Source: an uncultured Candidatus Saccharibacteria bacterium (lineage in GTDB: Bacteria > Patescibacteriota > Minisyncoccia > Phycocordibacterales > UBA9973). From it: a DNA stretch of 64,000 nt. The stretch spans positions 123,002 to 187,001 of the forward strand of contig CAYODR010000001.1 in the NCBI GenBank assembly GCA_964402895.1, given 5' to 3'. Under the pieces are notes generated by a model. It had not been told where the DNA came from. It saw only the letters and a program-made list of their open reading frames with translations, and ran no database searches. Shown piece after piece: positions 5,380-64,000 of the stretch. Each line of letters opens with the position of its first letter. The stretch's first letter is position 1. A program made the position numbers and the translations under genes.

Positions 5380-5667
5380 ATGACACATATTGATAGAATT
5401 TTGATCATAACTTTTATCGTAGTAGCAATTATTACTCTTTTAGTATTAATATCTACAAGACAGGGGAGAGTAATCTCAACCGATAGAGATATTGTGAGAT
5501 ACAATCAGGCTTCAGTTGGTAATGTAATAAGATATGAAAATACAGTGAGAGCAGTATCATCACCGACAAGGTATACAAATGGTATAAACTCAGCAGCAAC
5601 AACACAATCTTCATATACATATTATACTTATGAAGAGCCCGGACAAGTTTATTATTATTCAAACTAA
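5380..5667 (+). CDS. Hypothetical small protein with an N-terminal membrane anchor
   Basis: ORF with an N-terminal transmembrane segment and a Tyr/Thr-rich C-terminus, followed by a rho-independent terminator. Confidence 0.35.
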   Translation: MTHIDRILIITFIVVAIITLLVLISTRQGRVISTDRDIVRYNQASVGNVIRYENTVRAVSSPTRYTNGINSAATTQSSYTYYTYEEPGQVYYYSN

Positions 5668-5670
5668 CAA

Positions 5671-5699
5671 AAAAACGCATAGCAATATGCGTTTTTTTG
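5671..5699 (+). terminator. Rho-independent terminator (hairpin acgcat/atgcgt followed by a T7 run)
   Basis: aaaaACGCATagcaatATGCGTttttttt, read directly from the sequence. Confidence 0.5.
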
Positions 5700-5717
5700 T
5701 TATCCACAGCATAATAC

Positions 5718-13814: not shown

Positions 13815-14558
13815 CTAAGAAGCGCAACGAACATAATGATCAGCATCAACAACCCTACCTATATTACCACTACCAAAACTTTGACGATAATTACGAGAAG
13901 TTGATGTATAAGCTGGAGTAGATGACCAATAATAATTAACAGTAAAACCATACTGTGTGACATCACTACTGCTATAATCATAAATAGCTTTGAATACTTC
14001 AACTGGCGGAAGTCTTTTTCCTACATTAGCACAAATATTATTTGCATTGGCCCAATTAGCAGAACCACTATCTGCAGGGTCAAGTGTCATAACACTTTGG
14101 GTATCAACTGCATAATGAGTGTCATTGTAATATACTGCAACACCGAAATTTTTATCTTGTAATCCATCTGCTGCTGCAAAGTGTGAGGATCCAGCTGGAA
14201 CATCACTCGTCCTCACCACACATCTAACCCTATCTGCTCCTGCGATACTAGTTAAAGCATCTATCATAGGCTGTATTGAAGAATGTGCTGTGACTCCTGT
14301 TGTATTGTATGTACATAAACCTACAAAAGTACCGTTATCATTGTGATACATGATAGCTTGAGTTTGTAAGTTCTTTAGATTTGATTTAATCGCCGCTACT
14401 CTGCCTTTGGTCCTGACGCTGTTTAGACTTGCAATTACCACCGTTGCTAAGATACCTATAATAGCTATCACTACTAATAGTTCTATGAGAGTGAAGGCTT
14501 TTCTATAAGTGGTATACCCCCCTATTAGACTTTTTGAAAGGTTGGTTAATTTTTTCAT
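13815..14558 (-). CDS. Type IV pilin-like protein with a C-terminal CLec/FGE-like domain (pilin-CLec paralog 1). Candidate DGR-type target architecture.
   Basis: Prepilin leader MKKLTNLSKSLIGGYTTYRKA|[17 protein letters not shown]. The C-terminus contains NWANANNICANVGKRLPPVEVFKAIYDY...WSSTP...YVRCAS, resembling the FGE/CLec fold and the ...GFRCA ending of DGR variable regions. Paralogous to 30450..31253 and 63268..64000. Confidence 0.75.
   Translation of the reverse strand: MKKLTNLSKSLIGGYTTYRKAFTLIELLVVIAIIGILATVVIASLNSVRTKGRVAAIKSNLKNLQTQAIMYHNDNGTFVGLCTYNTTGVTAHSSIQPMIDALTSIAGADRVRCVVRTSDVPAGSSHFAAADGLQDKNFGVAVYYNDTHYAVDTQSVMTLDPADSGSANWANANNICANVGKRLPPVEVFKAIYDYSSSDVTQYGFTVNYYWSSTPAYTSTSRNYRQSFGSGNIGRVVDADHYVRCAS
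14517..14522 (-). repeat. Poly-G tract (6 nt, coding strand) in the Gly-Gly-Tyr codons of this pilin
   Basis: The plus strand shows cccccc; the gene is in frame with 6 G. Confidence 0.6.
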
Positions 14559-14586
14559 AAATATATTATATCATATACAACACTTC

Positions 14587-14688
14587 AAACAACATAGCTT
14601 TTTGCCGTCGGTGTATTTCTCCGGCTTTTGAATCACCTGACTCTCGGACGAGTCGTCCTGCGAGACACGGCAAAAAGCTATGTTGTTT
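14587..14688. repeat. Hairpin element A1 (type II; 21-bp perfect inverted arms aaacaacatagctttttgccg, ~60-nt loop; core in inverted orientation)
   Basis: Arms 14587-14607 and 14668-14688 are exact reverse complements of each other. The loop is the reverse complement of the loop of element B2 at 49415..49511. Confidence 0.6.
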
Positions 14689-14724
14689 TCGTTTTTGTGT
14701 TTGATATATTTAAAAATGAAAAAA

Positions 14725-14823
14725 CAAATATGTCTTTCTGGTGGGACTTAGCTACGGCTGACTGAGCCGAGCGTAGCAATTTCTCTGCTGAGAAATATGC
14801 GTGCCCCCAGAAAGATATATTTG
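14725..14823. repeat. Hairpin element A2 (type I; arms caaatatgtctttctggtggg / cccccagaaagatatatttg; loop contains GGCTGACTGAGCCGAGCGTAGC plus an inner 7-bp hairpin)
   Basis: Read directly from the sequence. Homologous to B1 (49279..49376) and C2 (57935..58039). Confidence 0.6.
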
Positions 14824-14892
14824 TTTTGGAATGGAGACTTATCCATGTCTAAAAATAATAATAGGATTTTAGAGGTTTTTAGTTTTAAAATA

Positions 14893-19121: not shown

Positions 19122-19135
19122 ATAACTATTTTAAA

Positions 19136-19168
19136 AACAAAACACCTCTTACAAGAGGTGTTTTGTTT
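19136..19168 (-). terminator. Rho-independent terminator (acacctctt / aagaggtgt)
   Basis: Perfect 9-bp stem with flanking A/T runs, between leuS and the downstream gene. Confidence 0.45.
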
Positions 19169-21110: not shown

Positions 21111-21163
21111 GATTAAATTATATCATTAAAAAAACGAAGTTTAAAACTTCGTTTTTTTAATGG

Positions 21164-26038: not shown

Positions 26039-26626
26039 TTAAGGATTCTGATGACAACCTGCTGCTGTAGCGCTATATGACCCATCGTATACTGCGCCAG
26101 ATGAACCTATACAAAACCAATCTCCAGATACTGAAGCAGCACTATCTTTTTGTTTAACATTAACAGAAAATCTATTTTTAACATCGCCACAACTCGTGCC
26201 ACAACCTAAGTACATTTTATTTGCAGCATTATCATCATTCGCATTTGTTGGAAGTTTAGATGTAATACTATTACAGATTTCTATTGCCCTATCTCTGTTT
26301 AGTGCAGTTATGAGTATTCTACTAGAACAAGTATACGCTCCACTACCACTTTGAGAATCTCCCATAAACCATGAACGAGTAACAAAAGTACTAAAATCCC
26401 CCGTCTCCGCATAATGCTCCATTGCTAAATTAAAGAGTTGTCTAGCTTCAGACTTAATGGCTGCAGTTTTAGCTTTTTCTCTTGCTCCATTTAGACTAGC
26501 TATTACTACTGTTGCTAGTATTCCGATGATTGCGATGACGACTAGGAGTTCAATGAGAGTGAAGGCTCTACTTTTTAGTGTATACCCCCCCTTAAAATTC
26601 TTTAGTTGGTTTGATAGGTTTTTCAT
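26039..26626 (-). CDS. Type IV pilin-like protein (Cys-rich C-terminus); paralog of 28711..29307
   Basis: Leader [21 protein letters not shown]|[19 protein letters not shown], with a shared internal [24 protein letters not shown]. Confidence 0.75.
26595..26601 (-). repeat. Poly-G tract (7 nt) at the GGY codons of this pilin
   Basis: The plus strand shows ccccccc; the gene is in frame. Confidence 0.6.
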
Positions 26627-28710: not shown

Positions 28711-29307
28711 TTATGGATTTTGAGTACAACCTTGTCTAGAAAGATTATAAACTCCTTCACTAACAACACCTGAAGTTCCAACGCAAAACCAATTTCCTGA
28801 AGTTCCTTCACTATCTTTCAGCTTTATATTTATTCCAAACCTATTTACTTTATCTGTACAACCACCAGTACATCCTAAATTAAGTTTATTTCTTGCTGAA
28901 TTGTCAGACCTATTAGTTGGTAATTTATTTACCATACTATTACATATCTCTATTGCTTTCTGTCTGTTGAAAGTATTTATGTTAAATGCAGATGAACAAG
29001 TACTTTCACTGGTAGAACTTGTTTGACCATCAGCTCTAACCCAACTATTAGGCATGTTAGATAAAAATGTAGTAAAATCCCCTGTCTCTGCATAATGTTC
29101 CATAGCAAGATTAAAGAGTTGTCTGGCTTCAGATTTTATAACTGCAGTTTTAGCTTTGTCTCTTGCGCTGTTTAGTGTTGCTATTACAACCGCAGCAAGA
29201 ATTCCTATGATTGCGATAACAACAAGTAGTTCGATTAGAGTGAAGGCTTTTCTATAAGAGGTATACCCCCCCATTTGTGTTTTAGAGATTGCCTGCAAAT
29301 CTTTCAT
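28711..29307 (-). CDS. Type IV pilin-like protein (Cys-rich C-terminus)
   Basis: Leader [21 protein letters not shown]|[19 protein letters not shown]. Paralog of 26039..26626. Confidence 0.75.
29266..29272 (-). repeat. Poly-G tract (7 nt) at the GGY codons of this pilin
   Basis: The plus strand shows ccccccc; the gene is in frame. Confidence 0.6.
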
Positions 29308-30449: not shown

Positions 30450-31253
30450 CTAGGCGGCACAACGAACGTGGGTATAATTACCAGTAGGGTTCCTAACCAC
30501 ATTACCAAGATTGAAAGCCTGTATATAAGCGATACTGGACTGGGTAGCAGAAGGGGTAGATGACCACCAACCGTTAGCAAAAAACCCATACTGAGTTACA
30601 TCAGTACTACTATAGTCATATATGGCTTTAAAGACTTCGATTGGGGGAAGTCTCTTTCCTGCTGCAGCACATCTATTATTTGCTTCAGCCCAGTTTGTTT
30701 CTGCACCATTGTTTGCAGAATCAAGTGTCATTACGCTTTGAGCATCAACAGCGTAGTGGTTTCCTTTGAACCAGACTGCTACACCAAAATTTTTATCTTG
30801 AAGTCCATCTGCTGCAACAAAGTGTGTAGCTGAAGTACTAGGAACATTTGAAGTACGAACAACACAGCGTACATTCTCATCTCCTGCAATATTCTTAAGA
30901 GCATCTATCATTGGTTCAACTGATGAATGATAACCTGTTTGAATAGTAGATGGTGCTACCCATGTACAAAGTCCAGCAAAAGTCCCATTGTCTGCATGGT
31001 ACATTATTGCCTGAGTCTGAAAATTCTTTAGATTGGATTTGATAGCTGCAATACGTCCTTTGTCTCTGGCTGAGTTTAGTGATGCGAGGACTACTCCAGC
31101 GAGTATACCTATGATTGCGATGACTACGAGAAGTTCGATTAGAGTAAAAGCTTTATTAAAAGAATTATTTCTAAACTTTTTTAACGAAAATAGGGTCTTT
31201 CTATGATTGCCCCCCCTATTTTCGCCTTTGGCAAAATGGTTAATTTTTATCAT
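30450..31253 (-). CDS. Type IV pilin-like protein with a C-terminal CLec/FGE-like domain (pilin-CLec paralog 2). It directly abuts the DGR reverse transcriptase and is a candidate DGR target.
   Basis: Long leader MIKINHFAKGENRGGNHRKTLFSLKKFRNNSFNKA|[19 protein letters not shown] (the ORF-track extension beyond 31253 is probably spurious; a TATAAT sits 8 nt upstream of this ATG). C-terminus NWAEANNRCAAAGKRLPPIEVFKAIYDY...WWSSTP...NLGNVVRNPTGNYTHVRCAA. Confidence 0.75.
   Translation of the reverse strand: MIKINHFAKGENRGGNHRKTLFSLKKFRNNSFNKAFTLIELLVVIAIIGILAGVVLASLNSARDKGRIAAIKSNLKNFQTQAIMYHADNGTFAGLCTWVAPSTIQTGYHSSVEPMIDALKNIAGDENVRCVVRTSNVPSTSATHFVAADGLQDKNFGVAVWFKGNHYAVDAQSVMTLDSANNGAETNWAEANNRCAAAGKRLPPIEVFKAIYDYSSTDVTQYGFFANGWWSSTPSATQSSIAYIQAFNLGNVVRNPTGNYTHVRCAA
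31210..31216 (-). repeat. Poly-G tract (7 nt) at the Arg-Gly-Gly codons of this pilin
   Basis: The plus strand shows ccccccc; the gene is in frame. Confidence 0.55.
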
Positions 31254-31425
31254 GACAATATTATAACATCTACAACTATAAGAACAAATATTTTTATTAG
31301 TACTATGTGGATAAAATATTAAAATAAAGTACGCTAACATAATACATTTTTAAAAAATTTACAAAATAAATTATAGAAATAAAAGTCTTGTTTTTCTATC
31401 TTCAATAAAGTATATTATAGCCAAT

Positions 31426-32664: not shown

Positions 32665-32712
32665 TAAAAAAGACCTCATCGTATGTATAGCACATACGAT
32701 GAGGTCTTACTT
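32665..32712 (-). terminator. Rho-independent terminator with a 17-bp perfect stem (aagacctcatcgtatgt / acatacgatgaggtctt)
   Basis: Read directly from the sequence, downstream of the 32719..33702 gene. Confidence 0.55.
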
Positions 32713-48484: not shown

Positions 48485-49184
48485 TTATTTACCACAGGCA
48501 AATAAAAGGGTATCCGTCTTCAAAAAATTAGATATTGCTCCATTATAACCTACATTTTCCATATGAATATAAAATCTCCTATCTAAATTTGAAAATAACT
48601 CTGTTGAAGTACCGTGCACTGCAGCTAAAAGTCCAAAAACAACATCTCCTTGATAACTCATGTGGAGAGCTTTTAATTGTTCCAAACTTGTCATCCTTGC
48701 ACCTTCATTTAAGCAGGTATTCATTGAGTTTATATAATTTTGTGTACCCACACTATGAGTCCCTAATATCTCAACCACCCCCCTATTGTCCACTGAGAAA
48801 TTCCTATCATTAAAATTCGCTGATACTCCAAAATTTAGATTTTTCTGCATAGTATAGCCATCGGGAATGATATAGCATCCCGACCTCACACCTCCAGAAT
48901 TTAATGAGTTCATCATATCTAGTATTTTAGCATCCTCACAAAGCCCTCCATAAGTCTTATTTGTATCAAAATACAATTCAGCTTGAAGACCGATATTTTT
49001 TAAACTTGATTTAATAGCCGCTATTCTACCTTTAGTGCGAGCAGAATTAAGTGATGCAATGACTACTCCTGCAAGGATACCTATAATAGCTATCACTACT
49101 AATAGTTCTATGAGAGTGAAGGCTTTTCTATAAGTGGTATACCCCCCCTATTTGTCTTTTAGAGTCCGCCTTTAATTTTTTCAT
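48485..49184 (-). pseudogene. Type IV pilin-like gene whose N-terminus is out of frame because its poly-G tract is 7 nt where 6 nt would be in frame (phase-OFF copy or homopolymer sequencing error)
   Basis: With 6 G the upstream ATG at 49184 reads [40 protein letters not shown]... continuous with ORF 48485..49096. As sequenced, that frame hits TAG after 18 codons. Confidence 0.6.
49142..49148 (-). repeat. Poly-G tract (7 nt) causing the frameshift in this pilin
   Basis: The plus strand shows a-ccccccc-t. Confidence 0.6.
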
Positions 49185-49278
49185 ATAAATATTATAACAT
49201 TTATATTTATACAAACAAATACTATACGCTTCAAAATACATTCCTATTTTTAGACACGGACAAACATTCACTCCAAAA

Positions 49279-49376
49279 CAAATATGTCTTTCTGGGGGCA
49301 CGCATAAAACTCTGCTGAGTTTTTGCTACGCTCGCACCAGTCGCGCTGCGCGAGTCCCACCAGAAAGACATATTTG
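49279..49376. repeat. Hairpin element B1 (type I, inverted orientation, diverged core)
   Basis: Arms caaatatgtctttctggggg / cccaccagaaagacatatttg. The loop is the reverse complement of the A2/C2 loop, with an inner hairpin aaaactc-agca-gagtttt. Confidence 0.6.
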
Positions 49377-49414
49377 TTTTTTCATTTTGTGTATTTTTAA
49401 ATTTTAAGAACGAA

Positions 49415-49511
49415 AAACAAAGCCTTTTTGCCGTGTCTCGCAGGCTGACTGAGCCGAGAGTCAGGTGATTTCTTAGCAAAGAAATACACCGACGGCAAAA
49501 AGGCTTTGTTT
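49415..49511. repeat. Hairpin element B2 (type II, core GGCTGACTGAGCCGAG in forward orientation)
   Basis: Arms aaacaaagcctttttgccg / cggcaaaaaggctttgttt. The loop is the reverse complement of the A1 loop. Confidence 0.6.
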
Positions 49512-49611
49512 GAAGTGATGGATATTAAATAAGCAATATGGTTTTGGGGGTTTTACGATTCAAGTAAAAATACTTATTTAGACTATGTAGTAATTCTGAT
49601 ATAATAAAAAC

Positions 49612-53888: not shown

Positions 53889-54280
53889 CAGACAAATAGG
53901 CGTTAAGCCTATTTTTTATTGGAGCCTAAAGATAAAATAAACAAAAGGTCCTAAAGTGTTTTAATTTGATAAAAAACTTTAGGACCAATTTTAATAGGTT
54001 CGTAACGCGCTGACATTTTGAGATACTTTGTTTGCTCCATTTATAACGAAATCCATAATAAATGCCGAAGCGTAAAACATGAAAATCAATACGATTATTA
54101 AGATGCTTATTGCTCCTAATAATTCCCAAACAGAGGTCCTTGACTCCTGTTTTTCTAAAATCTCTTTTTCCATAAGTTCTATATTTGGTTTAATTTAAGT
54201 ATAGCAATAAAAATACAAAAGGAAACCCCAGCACTTAAGGACAATATTATTGTTCTTAAGTGCTGGGGGATTTAAGTTTT

Positions 54281-57203: not shown

Positions 57204-57701
57204 TTAAAAATTACACCTAGGATTAGATACATACCAACCTAAATCTTCTGGATATACTCCTGTTTTACAATAACCACTATTTTCAAGATATACTCTTATA
57301 GCAAACTTGTCTTTATCTATAACACTTGAAATCATTTTATAAGCTTCATTGCCACTTATATATTTAGGATCTTTTGGAATTTCAGATATATAATTAGGAA
57401 CGAGATCTGTTTCATAAAAACTCATATCATAATATAAATCACCAGAACCAGGGCTTTTTTGTGCTGGATATCTACCATGATCCATATAATACATATTCAT
57501 AGCCATTTGTACTTGTTTGATATCTGAAATCCTCTTTGCATCTCTCGCCCTACTTCTCGCACTATTTAAATTTGCAATCACAACTGTAGCTAATATTCCG
57601 ATAATTGCAATGACTACTAGGAGCTCAATGAGAGTGAAGGCTCTACTTTTTAGTGTATATCCCCCCCCTACACTTTTTGAAAGGTTGGTTAATTTTTTCA
57701 T
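57204..57701 (-). CDS. Type IV pilin-like protein (the start is taken at MKKLTNLSKS; the ORF-track extension to 57737 covers the promoter)
   Basis: Leader [21 protein letters not shown]|[19 protein letters not shown], with a TATAAT 8 nt upstream of the ATG. Confidence 0.75.
   Translation of the reverse strand: MKKLTNLSKSVGGGYTLKSRAFTLIELLVVIAIIGILATVVIANLNSARSRARDAKRISDIKQVQMAMNMYYMDHGRYPAQKSPGSGDLYYDMSFYETDLVPNYISEIPKDPKYISGNEAYKMISSVIDKDKFAIRVYLENSGYCKTGVYPEDLGWYVSNPRCNF
57661..57668 (-). repeat. Poly-G tract (8 nt) encoding Gly-Gly-Gly in this pilin
   Basis: The plus strand shows cccccccc; the gene is in frame with 8 G. Confidence 0.6.
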
Positions 57702-57725
57702 GGTTTTATTATAACATATAGCATT

Positions 57726-57840
57726 AGTCCCAAACAATACATCCTATGAAGAGACTTAGCTTCGGCTGACTGAGCCGAGCACAGGAAAAAATCAGCAGAT
57801 TTTTATCCGTGTCTCTTCATAGGATGTATTGTTTGGGACT
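57726..57840. repeat. Hairpin element C1 (type II; 30-bp perfect arms; loop with GGCTGACTGAGCCGAG and inner hairpin aaaaatc-agca-gattttt)
   Basis: The arms atgtcccaaacaatacatcctatgaagagac and gtctcttcataggatgtattgtttgggacat are exact reverse complements. The pilin -35 box (TTGTTT) lies in the proximal arm. Confidence 0.6.
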
Positions 57841-57934
57841 TTTATCTTTACTAACGGAAAATAAAGCTTTTTGTATTTATTAAATTAAAACCGAAGAAAC
57901 TACATTGCTTATTTTTAGACTTGCGGAAAACGAG

Positions 57935-58039
57935 AAACCAAATATGTCCTTCTGGGGGACTTGCGCAGGCTGACTGAGCCGAGCATAGCGATTTTTCCTC
58001 AGAAAAATACGCGTGCCCCCAGAAGGACATATTTGGTTT
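57935..58039. repeat. Hairpin element C2 (type I; arms ccaaatatgtccttctggggg / cccccagaaggacatatttgg; core GGCTGACTGAGCCGAGCATAGC)
   Basis: Read directly from the sequence; homologous to A2 and B1. Confidence 0.6.
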
Positions 58040-58132
58040 TGGGTTTTTATTTATAAATAAGCAATATAGTTTTTTCGGTTTTTTCTAGATAATTAAAAAA
58101 CCGCCGAAGCGGTTTTTTGTTTTAGTATTCAA

Positions 58133-63267: not shown

Positions 63268-64000
63268 CTAGGCGGCACAGCGGACATATCGATTGGTGGG
63301 TGTCCCTATATTAATTACACCACTACCAAAGGTAAGATGATAAGCTTCAAAACCAGATGTACTACTAAGGGTAGCAGACCAATAAGTAGTAGTTGTTCCA
63401 ATAGTAAATCCTAAATTACCGCCCTCAGCTCCATAATCATTGATAGCTTTAAGTATTTCAATTGAAACAAGTCTTTTGCCAACATTAGAACATCTTAAAA
63501 TTGCGGTGGCATAATTAGTAATACCTCCGTTGTTTCCAGTATCAAGTGTCATTACCCCCTGAGCATCAACTGCGTAATGTCTTTCATTAAAATAAACTGC
63601 TACACCAAAGTTCTTGGTCTCAAGAGAGTCTGCTGCAAAAAAATTATCGATTAGTGGTACATCACTTGTCCTCACCACGCACCTGACCCTATCTGCTCCT
63701 GCAATACTTACGAGCGCATCTATCATAGGCTGTATTGAAGAATGTGCTGATACGCCTGTTTTATTGTATGTACAAAGTCCTGCAAAAGTACCATTGTCTG
63801 CGTGGTACATGATGGCTTGAGTTTGAAGATTCTTTAGATTGGACTTTATTGCTGCTACTCTGCCACTAGTGCGAGCTGAGTTTAAAGATGCGATGATGAC
63901 TCCTGCGAGTATTCCGATGATTGCAATAACTACTAGGAGTTCAATCAGAGTGAAGGCGTAACTTTTAGTGGTATACCCCCCCATTTGCCTTTTAGAGTCC
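63268..64000 (-). CDS. Type IV pilin-like protein with a C-terminal CLec/FGE-like domain (pilin-CLec paralog 3). It is 5'-partial: the start codon lies beyond the window end.
   Basis: In-frame upstream sequence ...DSKRQMGGYTTKSYA|[20 protein letters not shown]-terminus ...NVGKRLVSIEILKAINDY...YWSATLSS...GTPTNRYVRCAA. Confidence 0.75.
   Translation of the reverse strand, partial: DSKRQMGGYTTKSYAFTLIELLVVIAIIGILAGVIIASLNSARTSGRVAAIKSNLKNLQTQAIMYHADNGTFAGLCTYNKTGVSAHSSIQPMIDALVSIAGADRVRCVVRTSDVPLIDNFFAADSLETKNFGVAVYFNERHYAVDAQGVMTLDTGNNGGITNYATAILRCSNVGKRLVSIEILKAINDYGAEGGNLGFTIGTTTTYWSATLSSTSGFEAYHLTFGSGVINIGTPTNRYVRCAA
63936..63942 (-). repeat. Poly-G tract (7 nt) at the GGY codons of this pilin
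   Basis: The plus strand shows ccccccc; the gene is in frame. Confidence 0.6.

What the first reader, a model, noticed from the sequence alone, without database searches (positions are those of the whole stretch)
14583..14830. Family of paired ~100-nt hairpin elements (core GGCTGACTGAGCCGAG) at pilin 5' regions, with compensatory stem changes and both orientations
Six elements occur as three pairs, each upstream of a minus-strand pilin gene: locus A (14587..14688, 14725..14823), locus B (49279..49376, 49415..49511), and locus C (57726..57840, 57935..58039). Each element is a long perfect inverted repeat (16-30 bp arms) enclosing a ~55-60 nt loop. Type I arms are caaatatgtcYttctggggg in all three copies. 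Type II arms differ completely between copies (aaacaacatagctttttgccg / aaacaaagcctttttgccg / atgtcccaaacaatacatcctatgaagagac), yet each pairs perfectly with its own partner, which is covariation. Loops share ACTT(A)GCnnCGGCTGACTGAGCCGAGCnTAGC plus an inner 7-bp hairpin whose stem also covaries (atttctc/gagaaat; aaaactc/gagtttt; aaaaatc/gattttt; atttttc/gaaaaat). Orientation of the loop differs between loci: the A1 loop is the reverse complement of the B2 loop, and the B1 loop is the reverse complement of the A2/C2 loop. Locus B is therefore the inverse of locus A as a whole, while locus C is mixed. This is what invertible segments flanked by inverted repeats (invertons) would look like if captured in different states. 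Insertion of palindromic MITE-like elements in either orientation would look the same. In loci A and C the pilin -35 box (TTGTTT) lies inside the proximal hairpin arm, and a TATAAT sits 8 nt before each ATG. The elements therefore overlap the promoters of phase-variable surface genes. I do not recognise this repeat family.
Basis: seen in the sequence. Interest (0 to 1): 0.8.

Follow-up and report, generated by a model that had tools for sequence, protein, structure and literature searches.

The report
Dispersed palindromic repeat family of CPR bacteria
The six hairpins upstream of the pilin genes are real, but they are not pilin switches: they belong to an apparently undescribed palindromic repeat family that is spread through Patescibacteria (CPR) genomes, has a strongly conserved three-way-junction core, and is even inserted in frame inside housekeeping genes.

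Summary
All six elements exist at the stated coordinates. Each folds as a long stem of 19-30 bp capped by a ~55-nt three-way junction (z -7 to -13). A covariance model finds exactly these six in the 64-kb window. The core is not specific to pilins or to this genome. The same core with unrelated, self-complementary arms occurs in at least 77 copies in 62 sources (61 Patescibacteria loci plus the window; Saccharibacteria, Paceibacteria and others). These copies lie between genes in either orientation, often in pairs. At least 10 lie in frame inside housekeeping genes (UvrB, UvrC, RNase HII, Dus, RseP-like), where they are read as ...TDIFLLENSSCSAQSASQG.... The UvrB copy is a 49-aa insert that the closest orthologue (84% identical) lacks. 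Covariation is strong: 28 of 28 pairs vary on both sides, and 93.7% of cells are paired against 66% in shuffles. The core stays identical in orthologous inserts while flanking codons diverge. No Rfam family or paper matches. The inverton reading is not supported. Arm asymmetries and flanks turn together with the loop. The pilin -10 boxes lie outside the module. No recombinase is encoded in the window. Three other pilin genes here, and pilin homologues in relatives, lack the elements. Best reading: a mobile palindromic element like the Rickettsia palindromic elements (RPE), with an unusual conserved structured core. How it moves is unknown.

The parts
14587..14688 (-). Element A1 (type II). The core is on the minus strand. 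21-bp perfect arms. The P2 stem is GGAC/GTCC. P3 is partly decayed.
   Evidence: 54.5 bits; z -7.9
14725..14823 (+). Element A2 (type I). Arms CAAATATGTCTTTCTGGTGGGAC / GTGCCCCCAGAAAGATATATTTG. The P3 loop is TGCT, the reverse complement of the family consensus AGCA.
   Evidence: 66.8 bits; z -8.8
49279..49376 (-). Element B1 (type I). The core is on the minus strand. The P2 stem is GCGC/GTGC and the P3 stem is AAAACTC/GAGTTTT, both compensated relative to A2.
   Evidence: (76.6 bits)
49415..49511 (+). Element B2 (type II). 19-20-bp perfect arms, homologous to the A1 arms with compensated changes.
   Evidence: (83.5 bits)
57726..57840 (+). Element C1. 30-bp perfect arms unrelated to types I and II. 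Its outer end supplies a TTGTTT 18 nt upstream of the pilin C -10 box.
   Evidence: I4; 80 bits; z -12.7
57935..58039 (+). Element C2 (type I). 24-bp arms. It is nested inside a further 49-nt, 80% complementary inverted repeat (57869-57917 / 58052-58100).
   Evidence: I1, I5; 92.5 bits; z -11.1
14566..14870 (.). Two-element module at locus A. It is homologous, in inverted orientation, to 49233-49532 at locus B.
   Evidence: 309-nt alignment, 79%
49233..49532 (.). Two-element module at locus B. It is inverted relative to the pilin gene when compared with locus A. It is bracketed by weak inverted copies of the motif AAATAAGCAATATRGTTTT.
13815..14558 (-). Pilin gene A (N_methyl domain). The extended -10 TGATATAAT lies at 14565-14573, 6 nt before the ATG. 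The G6 tract is the + strand C run 14517-14522.
48485..49184 (-). Pilin gene B. It is frameshifted in a G7 tract (+ strand C run 49142-49148). Removing one G restores a 233-aa ORF. The -10 TGTTATAAT lies at 49191-49199.
57204..57701 (-). Pilin gene C (N_methyl, T2SSG). The -10 TGTTATAAT lies at 57708-57716. The G8 tract is the + strand C run 57661-57668.

Best explanation
**What it is.** The six hairpins are copies of a dispersed, non-autonomous palindromic repeat family of Patescibacteria (CPR).
- Each copy is a 100-150-nt hairpin.
- Its apex is a conserved three-way junction of about 57 nt:
  - P2 is 3 bp, a tandem G.A, 4 bp, and a GACUG loop.
  - P3 is an A/T-rich helix of 7-10 bp with an AGCA loop and a bulged A.
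- The long basal stem P1 differs in sequence between subfamilies but stays self-complementary.

**Shown.**
- The family is multi-copy and occurs in many CPR lineages.
- Copies sit between genes in either orientation, and are often clustered in pairs of different subtypes.
- Copies are also inserted in frame in housekeeping genes, with presence or absence differing between close orthologues.
- The core is kept unchanged in orthologous inserts while the surrounding codons drift.

**Inferred.**
- The element spreads as DNA, mobilised in trans by an enzyme that recognises the folded single strand carrying the GGCTGACTGAGCC sequence (the core) rather than the terminal repeat sequences.
- The arms stay complementary through selection for the hairpin, helped by template switching within the palindrome.

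**In this genome.** Young, near-perfect copies form two-element modules directly upstream of three paralogous pilin genes that are probably leaderless.
- The A/B difference is an orientation difference of the whole ~305-bp module, from an old inversion or from independent insertion. It is not a working switch.
- The likely local effect, which is inferred and untested, is passive. The hairpins would block read-through from the upstream genes (MurJ, RF-1), and their outer ends place a TTGTTT at -35 distance from the pilin extended -10.
- If these pilins phase-vary, the poly-G tract in the leader codons is the more likely cause.
For: **Family and structure.**
- The core motif scan of one genome per species gave 110 loci. 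All hits with flanking arms are in Patescibacteria or unnamed low-GC bins. The high-GC hits lack arms.
- The covariance model finds 77 copies in 62 sources (61 CPR loci plus the window).
- 93.7% of cells are paired against 66.3% in shuffles and 34-53% in the slid controls. All 28 pairs change on both sides.
- On the core strand there are 41 G.U against 15 A.C. Tandem G.A pairs recur in P2 and P1.

**Dispersal.**
- Of 32 copies closely flanked by two ORFs, 11 sit between convergent genes, 4 between divergent genes and 17 between tandem genes, and the tandem ones occur in both orientations. No pilin neighbours occur outside the window.
- The genes lying between paired copies are recA, efp, fpg and ruvA. 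No transposase lies between them.

**Coding inserts.**
- Nine copies in RseP-like, Dus, RNase HII, UvrB, UvrC and one other gene are all read in one antisense frame.
- UvrB carries a 49-aa insert exactly between residues 427 and 429 of the solved UvrB 9gy7_E.
- RNase HII has extra residues at the insert position.
- Among 120 UvrB homologues only the host carries this insert. The 84%-identical orthologue is empty at that site.

**Constraint on the core.** 35 of 35 core nucleotides are identical in three Dus orthologues whose third codon positions differ. Their P3 stems are compensated.

**Not known.** No Rfam match was found, and no paper was found.

**Local.**
Against: - No autonomous parent element or mobilising enzyme was found.
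- No target-site duplication is visible.
- Terminal repeats that vary while the core is conserved is the opposite of ordinary MITEs and REPINs.
- Nucleotide-level conservation of the core in old orthologous inserts is not expected for decaying selfish DNA. It could instead mean a host function.
- Translation of the coding copies is inferred only from open reading frames.
- The sample was seeded with an exact 18-mer, so the diversity of the core is under-sampled. Many copies are related, so the counts are not independent.
- Only one strain of this organism was available, so ongoing inversion could not be tested.
Confidence: 0.62

Rival explanations
1. The elements are a host-functional structured nucleic acid. 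This could be a small RNA, or a cis-acting terminator, insulator or stability element, or a protein-binding DNA hairpin. The cell would keep the conserved three-way junction because it binds a conserved factor, and the copies would be recruited rather than selfish.
For: - Covariation is very strong.
- The core is invariant in orthologous Dus and RNase HII inserts while flanking codons diverge.
- There is a strand-specific excess of G.U, and tandem G.A motifs are conserved.
- The family persists across distant CPR classes with tiny genomes.
- Copies are enriched between convergent genes, and T-rich tracts follow the arms.
Against: - Copies are inserted in frame inside housekeeping proteins, mostly antisense to the mRNA.
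- Copies show both orientations relative to neighbouring genes and no consistent gene association.
- Presence differs between 84%-identical UvrB orthologues.
- No conserved promoter was seen.
Confidence: 0.22
2. The elements are invertons. The loops, or the ~305-bp modules, are flipped by a site-specific recombinase acting on the flanking inverted repeats, and this switches pilin expression.
For: - Every loop is flanked by inverted repeats.
- Module A is the exact inverse of module B relative to the pilin gene.
- The modules are bracketed by weak outer inverted repeats.
- The neighbouring genes are surface pilins, one of which is out of frame.
Against: - Arm asymmetries and flanks invert together with the core.
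- The A and B modules are only 79% identical, so they have long been separate.
- The -10 boxes lie outside the module.
- A 52-58-nt spacer between the arms is very short for recombinase synapsis. This rests on established knowledge of Hin and Fim type systems.
- No recombinase was found among the window ORFs scanned.
- The same family sits inside coding genes and next to unrelated genes elsewhere.
- No orientation variant was seen in the one other sample.
Confidence: 0.05
3. The coding copies are intervening sequences that are removed from the mRNA or skipped by the ribosome, in the manner of mini-introns or translational bypass elements. The core is conserved because it is needed for that removal.
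For: The core is under purifying selection inside essential genes. The inserts form very stable hairpins.
Against: - The reading frame stays open through every coding copy, in one preferred frame.
- Sense-oriented copies have lost the TGA of the GACTGAG loop.
- The structure-preserving mismatches (G.U, G.A) are on the strand antisense to the mRNA.
- There is no match to any known ribozyme or intron family.
Confidence: 0.05

Closest known systems
Rickettsia palindromic elements (RPE; Ogata et al. 2000, cited from my own knowledge)
   Same: - Palindromic repeats of 100-150 bp in a reduced genome.
- Dispersed in intergenic regions and inserted in frame in housekeeping genes.
- Apparently translated.
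- No transposase, no clear target duplication, and an unknown mechanism of spread.
   Different: - There is no sequence relationship and the host phylum is different.
- Here a ~57-nt three-way-junction core is nearly invariant across classes, while the arms differ completely between subfamilies.
- The core stays fixed in orthologous inserts.
- Coding copies show a strong bias in orientation and frame.
Correia repeat-enclosed elements (Neisseria) and other bacterial MITEs
   Same: - Short non-autonomous palindromic repeats near surface-protein genes.
- Their ends can supply promoter hexamers.
- They form hairpins in transcripts.
- They occur in either orientation.
   Different: - Correia elements and MITEs have conserved terminal inverted repeats and a TA (or other) target duplication, and they trace to an IS family. 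None of these was found here.
- The conserved part here is internal and structured.
REP / REPIN elements with RAYT transposases; IS200/IS605-derived palindrome-associated transposable elements (PATEs)
   Same: - Hairpin-forming repeats thought to move as single-stranded DNA.
- They are recognised by structure.
- They are often found in pairs or clusters between convergent genes.
- They persist for a long time.
   Different: - In REPINs the arms are the conserved part and the loop is variable.
- No GTAG/CGTC tag was seen.
- No RAYT or TnpA was seen near any copy.
- REPs are not found in frame in genes.
Promoter invertons (the fimS switch of E. coli, Bacteroides invertible promoters)
   Same: Segments flanked by inverted repeats upstream of pilus or surface genes. 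The ~305-bp module is similar in size to fimS.
   Different: - The promoter is not inside the segment.
- No invertase is nearby.
- No two-state evidence exists.
- The family is dispersed in unrelated contexts, including coding sequence.
Translational bypass elements ('byps') of yeast mitochondria, and T4 gene 60
   Same: Short hairpin-forming mobile inserts inside coding sequence.
   Different: The inserts here keep an open frame and show no matching take-off and landing codons. The evidence points to read-through translation.

Membership tests
MITE (miniature inverted-repeat transposable element) | Terminal inverted repeats conserved within the family and related to those of an autonomous IS | tested here: not met
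   The arms are unrelated between subfamilies, while the internal core is conserved. No transposase gene lies near or between copies.
MITE (miniature inverted-repeat transposable element) | Target-site duplication flanking each copy | tested here: not met
   No direct repeat is visible at the ends of the arms in the window or in the CPR copies. The boundaries are imprecise because no empty site was available at the DNA level.
MITE (miniature inverted-repeat transposable element) | Many dispersed copies, either orientation, presence or absence differing between relatives | tested here: met
   77 copies were found in 62 sources (61 CPR loci plus the window), in both orientations. The UvrB insert is absent from the 84%-identical orthologue.
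RPE-like palindromic elements | Palindromic repeat inserted in frame in protein-coding genes without disrupting them | tested here: met
   The ORF is open through the element in UvrB, UvrC, Dus, RNase HII and an RseP-like gene. The UvrB copy is a precise 49-aa insert relative to a solved UvrB.
RPE-like palindromic elements | Sequence homology to the Rickettsia RPE families | not tested
   No RPE consensus was available in the tools. The hosts and the core sequence are different, so this is an analogy and not membership.
Inverton (invertible promoter segment) | The same locus found in both orientations within a population | not testable with these tools
   Only one other sample holds the organism. 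Its contig shows the same orientation and breaks inside A2.
Inverton (invertible promoter segment) | Only the segment between the repeats inverts, while the repeats and flanks stay fixed | tested here: not met
   The arm bulges, the spacer and the flanks are inverted together with the cores.
Inverton (invertible promoter segment) | Promoter inside the segment, and an invertase encoded nearby | tested here: not met
   The extended -10 boxes lie in the direct pilin homology, outside the module. No recombinase was found in the Pfam scans of 70 of the 74 window ORFs. Three more ORFs were checked through the L113 annotation, and 63268-63984 was not scanned. The rest of the genome was not visible.
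Any Rfam RNA family (including known ribozymes, the HEARO family, CRISPR repeats) | Score at or above the family gathering threshold | tested here: not met
   Only tRNAs pass the threshold. The sub-threshold hits are generic long-hairpin miRNA models, at 12-31 bits against cut-offs of 56-230 bits.
Structured functional RNA or single-stranded DNA element (generic) | Base pairs maintained by compensatory changes beyond what relatedness explains | tested here: met
   All 28 pairs show double changes. The covariation score is 0.68, against 0.19 in shuffles and 0.06-0.17 in the slid controls. Caveat: the alignment was fitted to the model.
REPIN / RAYT system | Conserved REP arms with a variable loop, and a single-copy RAYT gene | tested here: not met
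   The pattern of conservation is the opposite. No RAYT-like gene was seen in the window or between copies. Whole genomes were not searched.

The most novel reading that the evidence does not exclude
The ~57-nt three-way junction may be the active module of a new class of mobile or semi-domesticated element that is confined to, and ancient in, Patescibacteria. On this reading it propagates and is maintained through a folded single strand, either DNA or an antisense RNA, that a conserved CPR factor recognises or that has catalytic activity of its own. That would explain three things: why the core is under nucleotide-level purifying selection even inside essential genes, why the arms are free to vary, and why copies cluster in pairs of different subtypes.
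Probability: 0.3. Interest if true: 0.85.

Novelty: new variant of a known kind. Interest (0 to 1): 0.62.

Why it matters
**Why the family matters.**
- CPR genomes are about 1 Mb and are thought to carry little selfish DNA.
- A repeat family shared by Saccharibacteria, Paceibacteria and their relatives, sitting inside UvrB, UvrC, RNase HII and Dus, would be a second, independent case of the Rickettsia 'selfish DNA in proteins' phenomenon.
- Its conserved structured core gives a handle on the mobilising machinery, which has never been identified for RPEs.

**Practical consequences.**
- These repeats break short-read assemblies. The contigs of the only other sample end inside them.
- They add about 40-50 residues to annotated proteins.
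- They can be mistaken for regulatory switches.

**For this window.** The pilin phase-variation story moves from inversion to the poly-G tracts in the leader codons.

Tried and rejected
- **Known RNA families.** Rfam at gathering and at permissive thresholds, on the window and on CPR copies, gave only tRNAs and generic hairpin matches.
- **Insertion into pre-existing terminator hairpins** as the source of the variable arms. Rejected, because the arms come with the insert inside UvrB, where no palindrome pre-exists. Also, two copies with nearly the same inner arms lie in different genes (L063 and L073).
- **rRNA or other large RNA context** for the copies with long ORF-free flanks. Rejected, because these copies lie inside protein genes.
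- **Transposase between paired copies.** Only housekeeping genes were found there.
- **Phage carriage.** There were no hits in viral contigs.
- **Strain variants of this organism.** There is one sample only, with contigs broken at the repeats. NCBI-only proteins are not in the contig index, which cost three look-ups.
- **Pilin homologues in relatives.** They carry no element.
- **Metagenome scan with the type I arm 20-mer.** It gave four chance hits and no element.
- **Protein search with the 49-aa insert peptide.** It returned nothing because of the word index, although the host protein is in the collection.
- **Promoter and terminator consensus scans.** They did no better than chance.
- **Apparent flip of C2** relative to the TATTTTTAGAC flank. 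This is resolved: C2 carries that flank motif on both sides as an outer inverted repeat.

Full report
**1.

Reading the three loci and the inverted-repeat scan confirm six elements at the stated places.
- The arms are 19-30 nt and the apical part is 52-58 nt.
- The 16-mer GGCTGACTGAGCCGAG occurs four times, where 0.07 is expected.
- A1 and B1 carry compensated variants on the other strand.
- Each element folds into the same shape:
  - a long basal stem, P1;
  - a hairpin P2, with stem GGCU/AGCC and loop GACUG;
  - an A/T-rich hairpin P3.
- Folding z-scores are -7.3 to -12.7.
- A covariance model built later scores the six at 54-92 bits. Nothing else in the 64 kb scores above 22 bits.

BLAST and a pairwise alignment show that A 14566-14870 equals B 49532-49233 in inverted orientation (79% over 309 nt). 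The pilin 5' ends are direct repeats.

- The A1 and B2 arms are homologous with compensated differences.
- The -10 box is an extended TGnTATAAT, 6 nt before each ATG.
- Locus B has the same TTGTTT plus -10 arrangement without a hairpin arm.

**2. The elements are not a local peculiarity**

- About half are low-GC Patescibacteria bins (Saccharibacteria, Paceibacteria, Zambryski-, Taylor- and Nomurabacteria, Minisyncoccia).
- In every one of those the motif sits in the same ~57-nt core, flanked by inverted-repeat arms of unrelated sequence.
- The high-GC hits have no arms and are chance matches in coding sequence.

The model finds 77 copies in 62 sources, which are 61 CPR loci plus the window. 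Several genomes hold four or more copies within the few loci fetched.

On this alignment:
- 93.7% of cells are paired, against 66.3% after shuffling and 34-53% when partners are slid.
- All 28 pairs show changes on both sides.

Rfam has no such family, at gathering or at permissive thresholds. Five literature searches found nothing on it.

**3. Context elsewhere**

- Outside this window no copy is next to a pilin.
- Of 32 copies closely flanked by two ORFs, 11 lie between convergent genes, 4 between divergent genes and 17 between tandem genes. Among the tandem cases, 12 are antisense and 5 sense to the genes.
- Copies cluster. Pairs 20-90 nt apart occur in L021, L030 and L078.
  - L021 and L030, from one Paceibacterota genome, pair an element of type II kind (inner arm GCCGT...ACGGC) with one of type I/beta kind, as in this window.
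- Genes lying between more distant pairs are recA, efp, fpg and ruvA. None is a transposase.

**4. Copies inside genes**

Nine copies with long 'ORF-free' flanks turned out to lie inside long ORFs. The hosts are an RseP-like protease, Dus (three genomes), RNase HII (two genomes), UvrB, UvrC and a membrane protein.
- All nine are antisense to the gene and are read in the same frame. The peptide is (K/S)(C/S)TDIFLL(E/K)NSSCSAQSASQG, with the arms translated on either side.
- Against solved UvrB structures, the L073 protein has a 49-residue insert exactly between residues 427 and 429 of 9gy7_E.
- RNase HII shows extra residues at the insert position.
- In all, 14 of the 77 copies lie in frames open for at least 40 codons on both sides. 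Three of these are in sense orientation, and two of the three (L108, L021) have lost the TGA of the GACTGAG loop.
- Among the 120 closest UvrB homologues only the host protein carries this insert.
  - The 84%-identical orthologue reads EVRPITEKAKYKGQIADFI across the empty site.
  - About 40 others carry unrelated inserts at the same loop, and some of these look like translated palindromes.

This is the pattern described for Rickettsia palindromic elements, which I cite from my own knowledge.

**5. The core is constrained**

- In the three Dus orthologues and the two RNase HII orthologues, 35 consecutive core nucleotides are identical, while the flanking codons differ at most third positions.
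- The P3 stems differ by compensated changes, and the arms have diverged but still pair.
- On the core strand G.U outnumbers A.C by 41 to 15.
- Tandem G.A pairs recur in P2. GA/GA or GAG/GAA internal loops recur at a fixed depth in P1.
- On the complementary strand these would be destabilising C.A and pyrimidine-pyrimidine mismatches.
- So the strand that matters is the one carrying GGCTGACTGAGCC, and in genes that strand is antisense to the mRNA.

This is more constraint than decaying selfish DNA should show. It is the main reason the host-function rival keeps weight.

**6. Why not invertons**

- The type I arms have a T bulge on the 5' side and a G bulge on the 3' side of the core, both in A2(+) and in B1(-).
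- The spacer and about 20-50 nt of flank are inverted too.
- What differs between A and B is therefore the orientation of a whole module that is only 79% identical between the two loci. It is not a loop between fixed repeats.
- The pilin -10 boxes lie in the direct pilin homology.
- Pfam scans of 70 of the 74 window ORFs found no recombinase, transposase or reverse transcriptase. Three more ORFs were checked through the L113 annotation, and 63268-63984 was not scanned.
- Three further pilin genes in the window, and pilin homologues in relatives, have no element.
- The single other sample with this organism has locus A in the same orientation, and its contigs stop inside the repeats.

The modules are bracketed by weak outer inverted repeats (AAATAAGCAATATRGTTTT; 49-nt arms around C2). 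An old inversion by recombination between repeats is therefore possible. Ongoing switching cannot be excluded without reads.

**7. Local reading**

- The three pilin genes that carry the elements sit singly between housekeeping genes (MurJ, GreA, tRNA-Ile and RF-1).
- Their TGnTATAAT lies 6 nt from the ATG, which implies leaderless mRNAs.
- The outer end of each kind of arm is ...TTGTTT, which falls 16-18 nt upstream of the -10 in A and C.
- Whether this matters for an extended -10 promoter is unknown.
- The hairpins (-47 to -71 kcal/mol) stand between the ends of the upstream genes and the pilin promoters. They could stop read-through. This is inference only, and the consensus scans were uninformative.
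- All the related pilin genes have a G6-G8 run in the leader codons.
- Pilin B is out of frame at G7, and one G fewer restores a 233-aa protein. If these genes phase-vary, this is the likelier route.

**8. Verdict**

- The inverton reading is not supported.
- The MITE-like reading is supported in spirit, but the family fails two defining MITE features (conserved terminal repeats and a target duplication). It is best compared with RPEs.
- What is new is the combination of four features:
  - a distribution across the CPR;
  - a three-way-junction core that is nearly invariant and supported by covariation;
  - arms that are free to vary;
  - in-frame inserts with a fixed frame.
- The mechanism of spread, and whether the core serves the host, remain open.

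Noticed in passing
window 14517-14522, 49142-49148, 57661-57668 (+ strand C runs); also inside genes 26039-26626 and 28711-29307: Every MKxL...GGYT pilin gene has a G6-G8 homopolymer in its leader-peptide codons. Pilin B (G7) is frameshifted, and removing one G restores a 233-aa ORF. This is either slipped-strand phase variation or a homopolymer sequencing error.
   Followed up: partly
window 14565-14573, 49191-49199, 57708-57716; upstream of 26626 and 29307: The pilin genes have an extended -10 box (TGnTATAAT or a close variant) ending 6 nt before the ATG, with no room for a Shine-Dalgarno sequence. The mRNAs are therefore probably leaderless.
   Followed up: partly
window 26039-26626, 28711-29307, 30450-31340: These are three further N_methyl (prepilin) genes in the window. 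None has a hairpin element upstream.
   Followed up: yes
UvrB homologues P0124-P0243, loop EVRPIT...YPGQIADFI (L073 6436-6582): This loop is an insertion hot spot in CPR UvrB. 74 of 120 close homologues are empty there. About 40 carry unrelated inserts of up to about 57 residues, and some look like translated palindromes (PSLTLREGRE...SPLKVRG). This suggests other palindromic element families in CPR coding genes.
   Followed up: partly
window 49527-49545 (+), 57896-57914 (-), 58055-58073 (+); degenerate copies at 14853-14872 and 49233-49251: A second short repeat, AAATAAGCAATATRGTTTT, brackets the modules as outer inverted repeats. Around C2 it extends to 49-nt arms that are 80% complementary (57869-57917 / 58052-58100). 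The hairpins are therefore nested in larger palindromes.
   Followed up: partly
window 14776-14793 (A2 P3 hairpin): The P3 loop of A2 is TGCT, the reverse complement of the family consensus AGCA, between unchanged stem arms. This looks like a small hairpin-loop inversion of the kind produced by template switching within a palindrome.
   Followed up: no
L108 5626-5704 and 6331-6408: One Dus gene carries two copies in opposite orientations. The sense-oriented copy has GACTG changed to GGCTG, which removes the in-frame TGA.
   Followed up: partly
L114 2069-2839: In a related organism a homologue of pilin A (61% identical) sits in the middle of the ribosomal protein operon, between L5 and S14. These pilin genes therefore seem to be inserted singly among housekeeping genes.
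   Followed up: no
window 21124-21162, 5665-5702, 32670-32708, 19135-19168, 54226-54268: These intergenic palindromes have perfect or near-perfect arms of 16-21 nt and loops of 1-5 nt, flanked by A and T tracts. They are probably bidirectional terminators. They are unrelated to the element family, scoring at most 22 bits with the model.
   Followed up: partly
window, whole: Nearly all genes lie on the minus strand. Four of the six elements have their core strand on the plus strand, which fits the antisense bias seen for copies in and between genes elsewhere.
   Followed up: no
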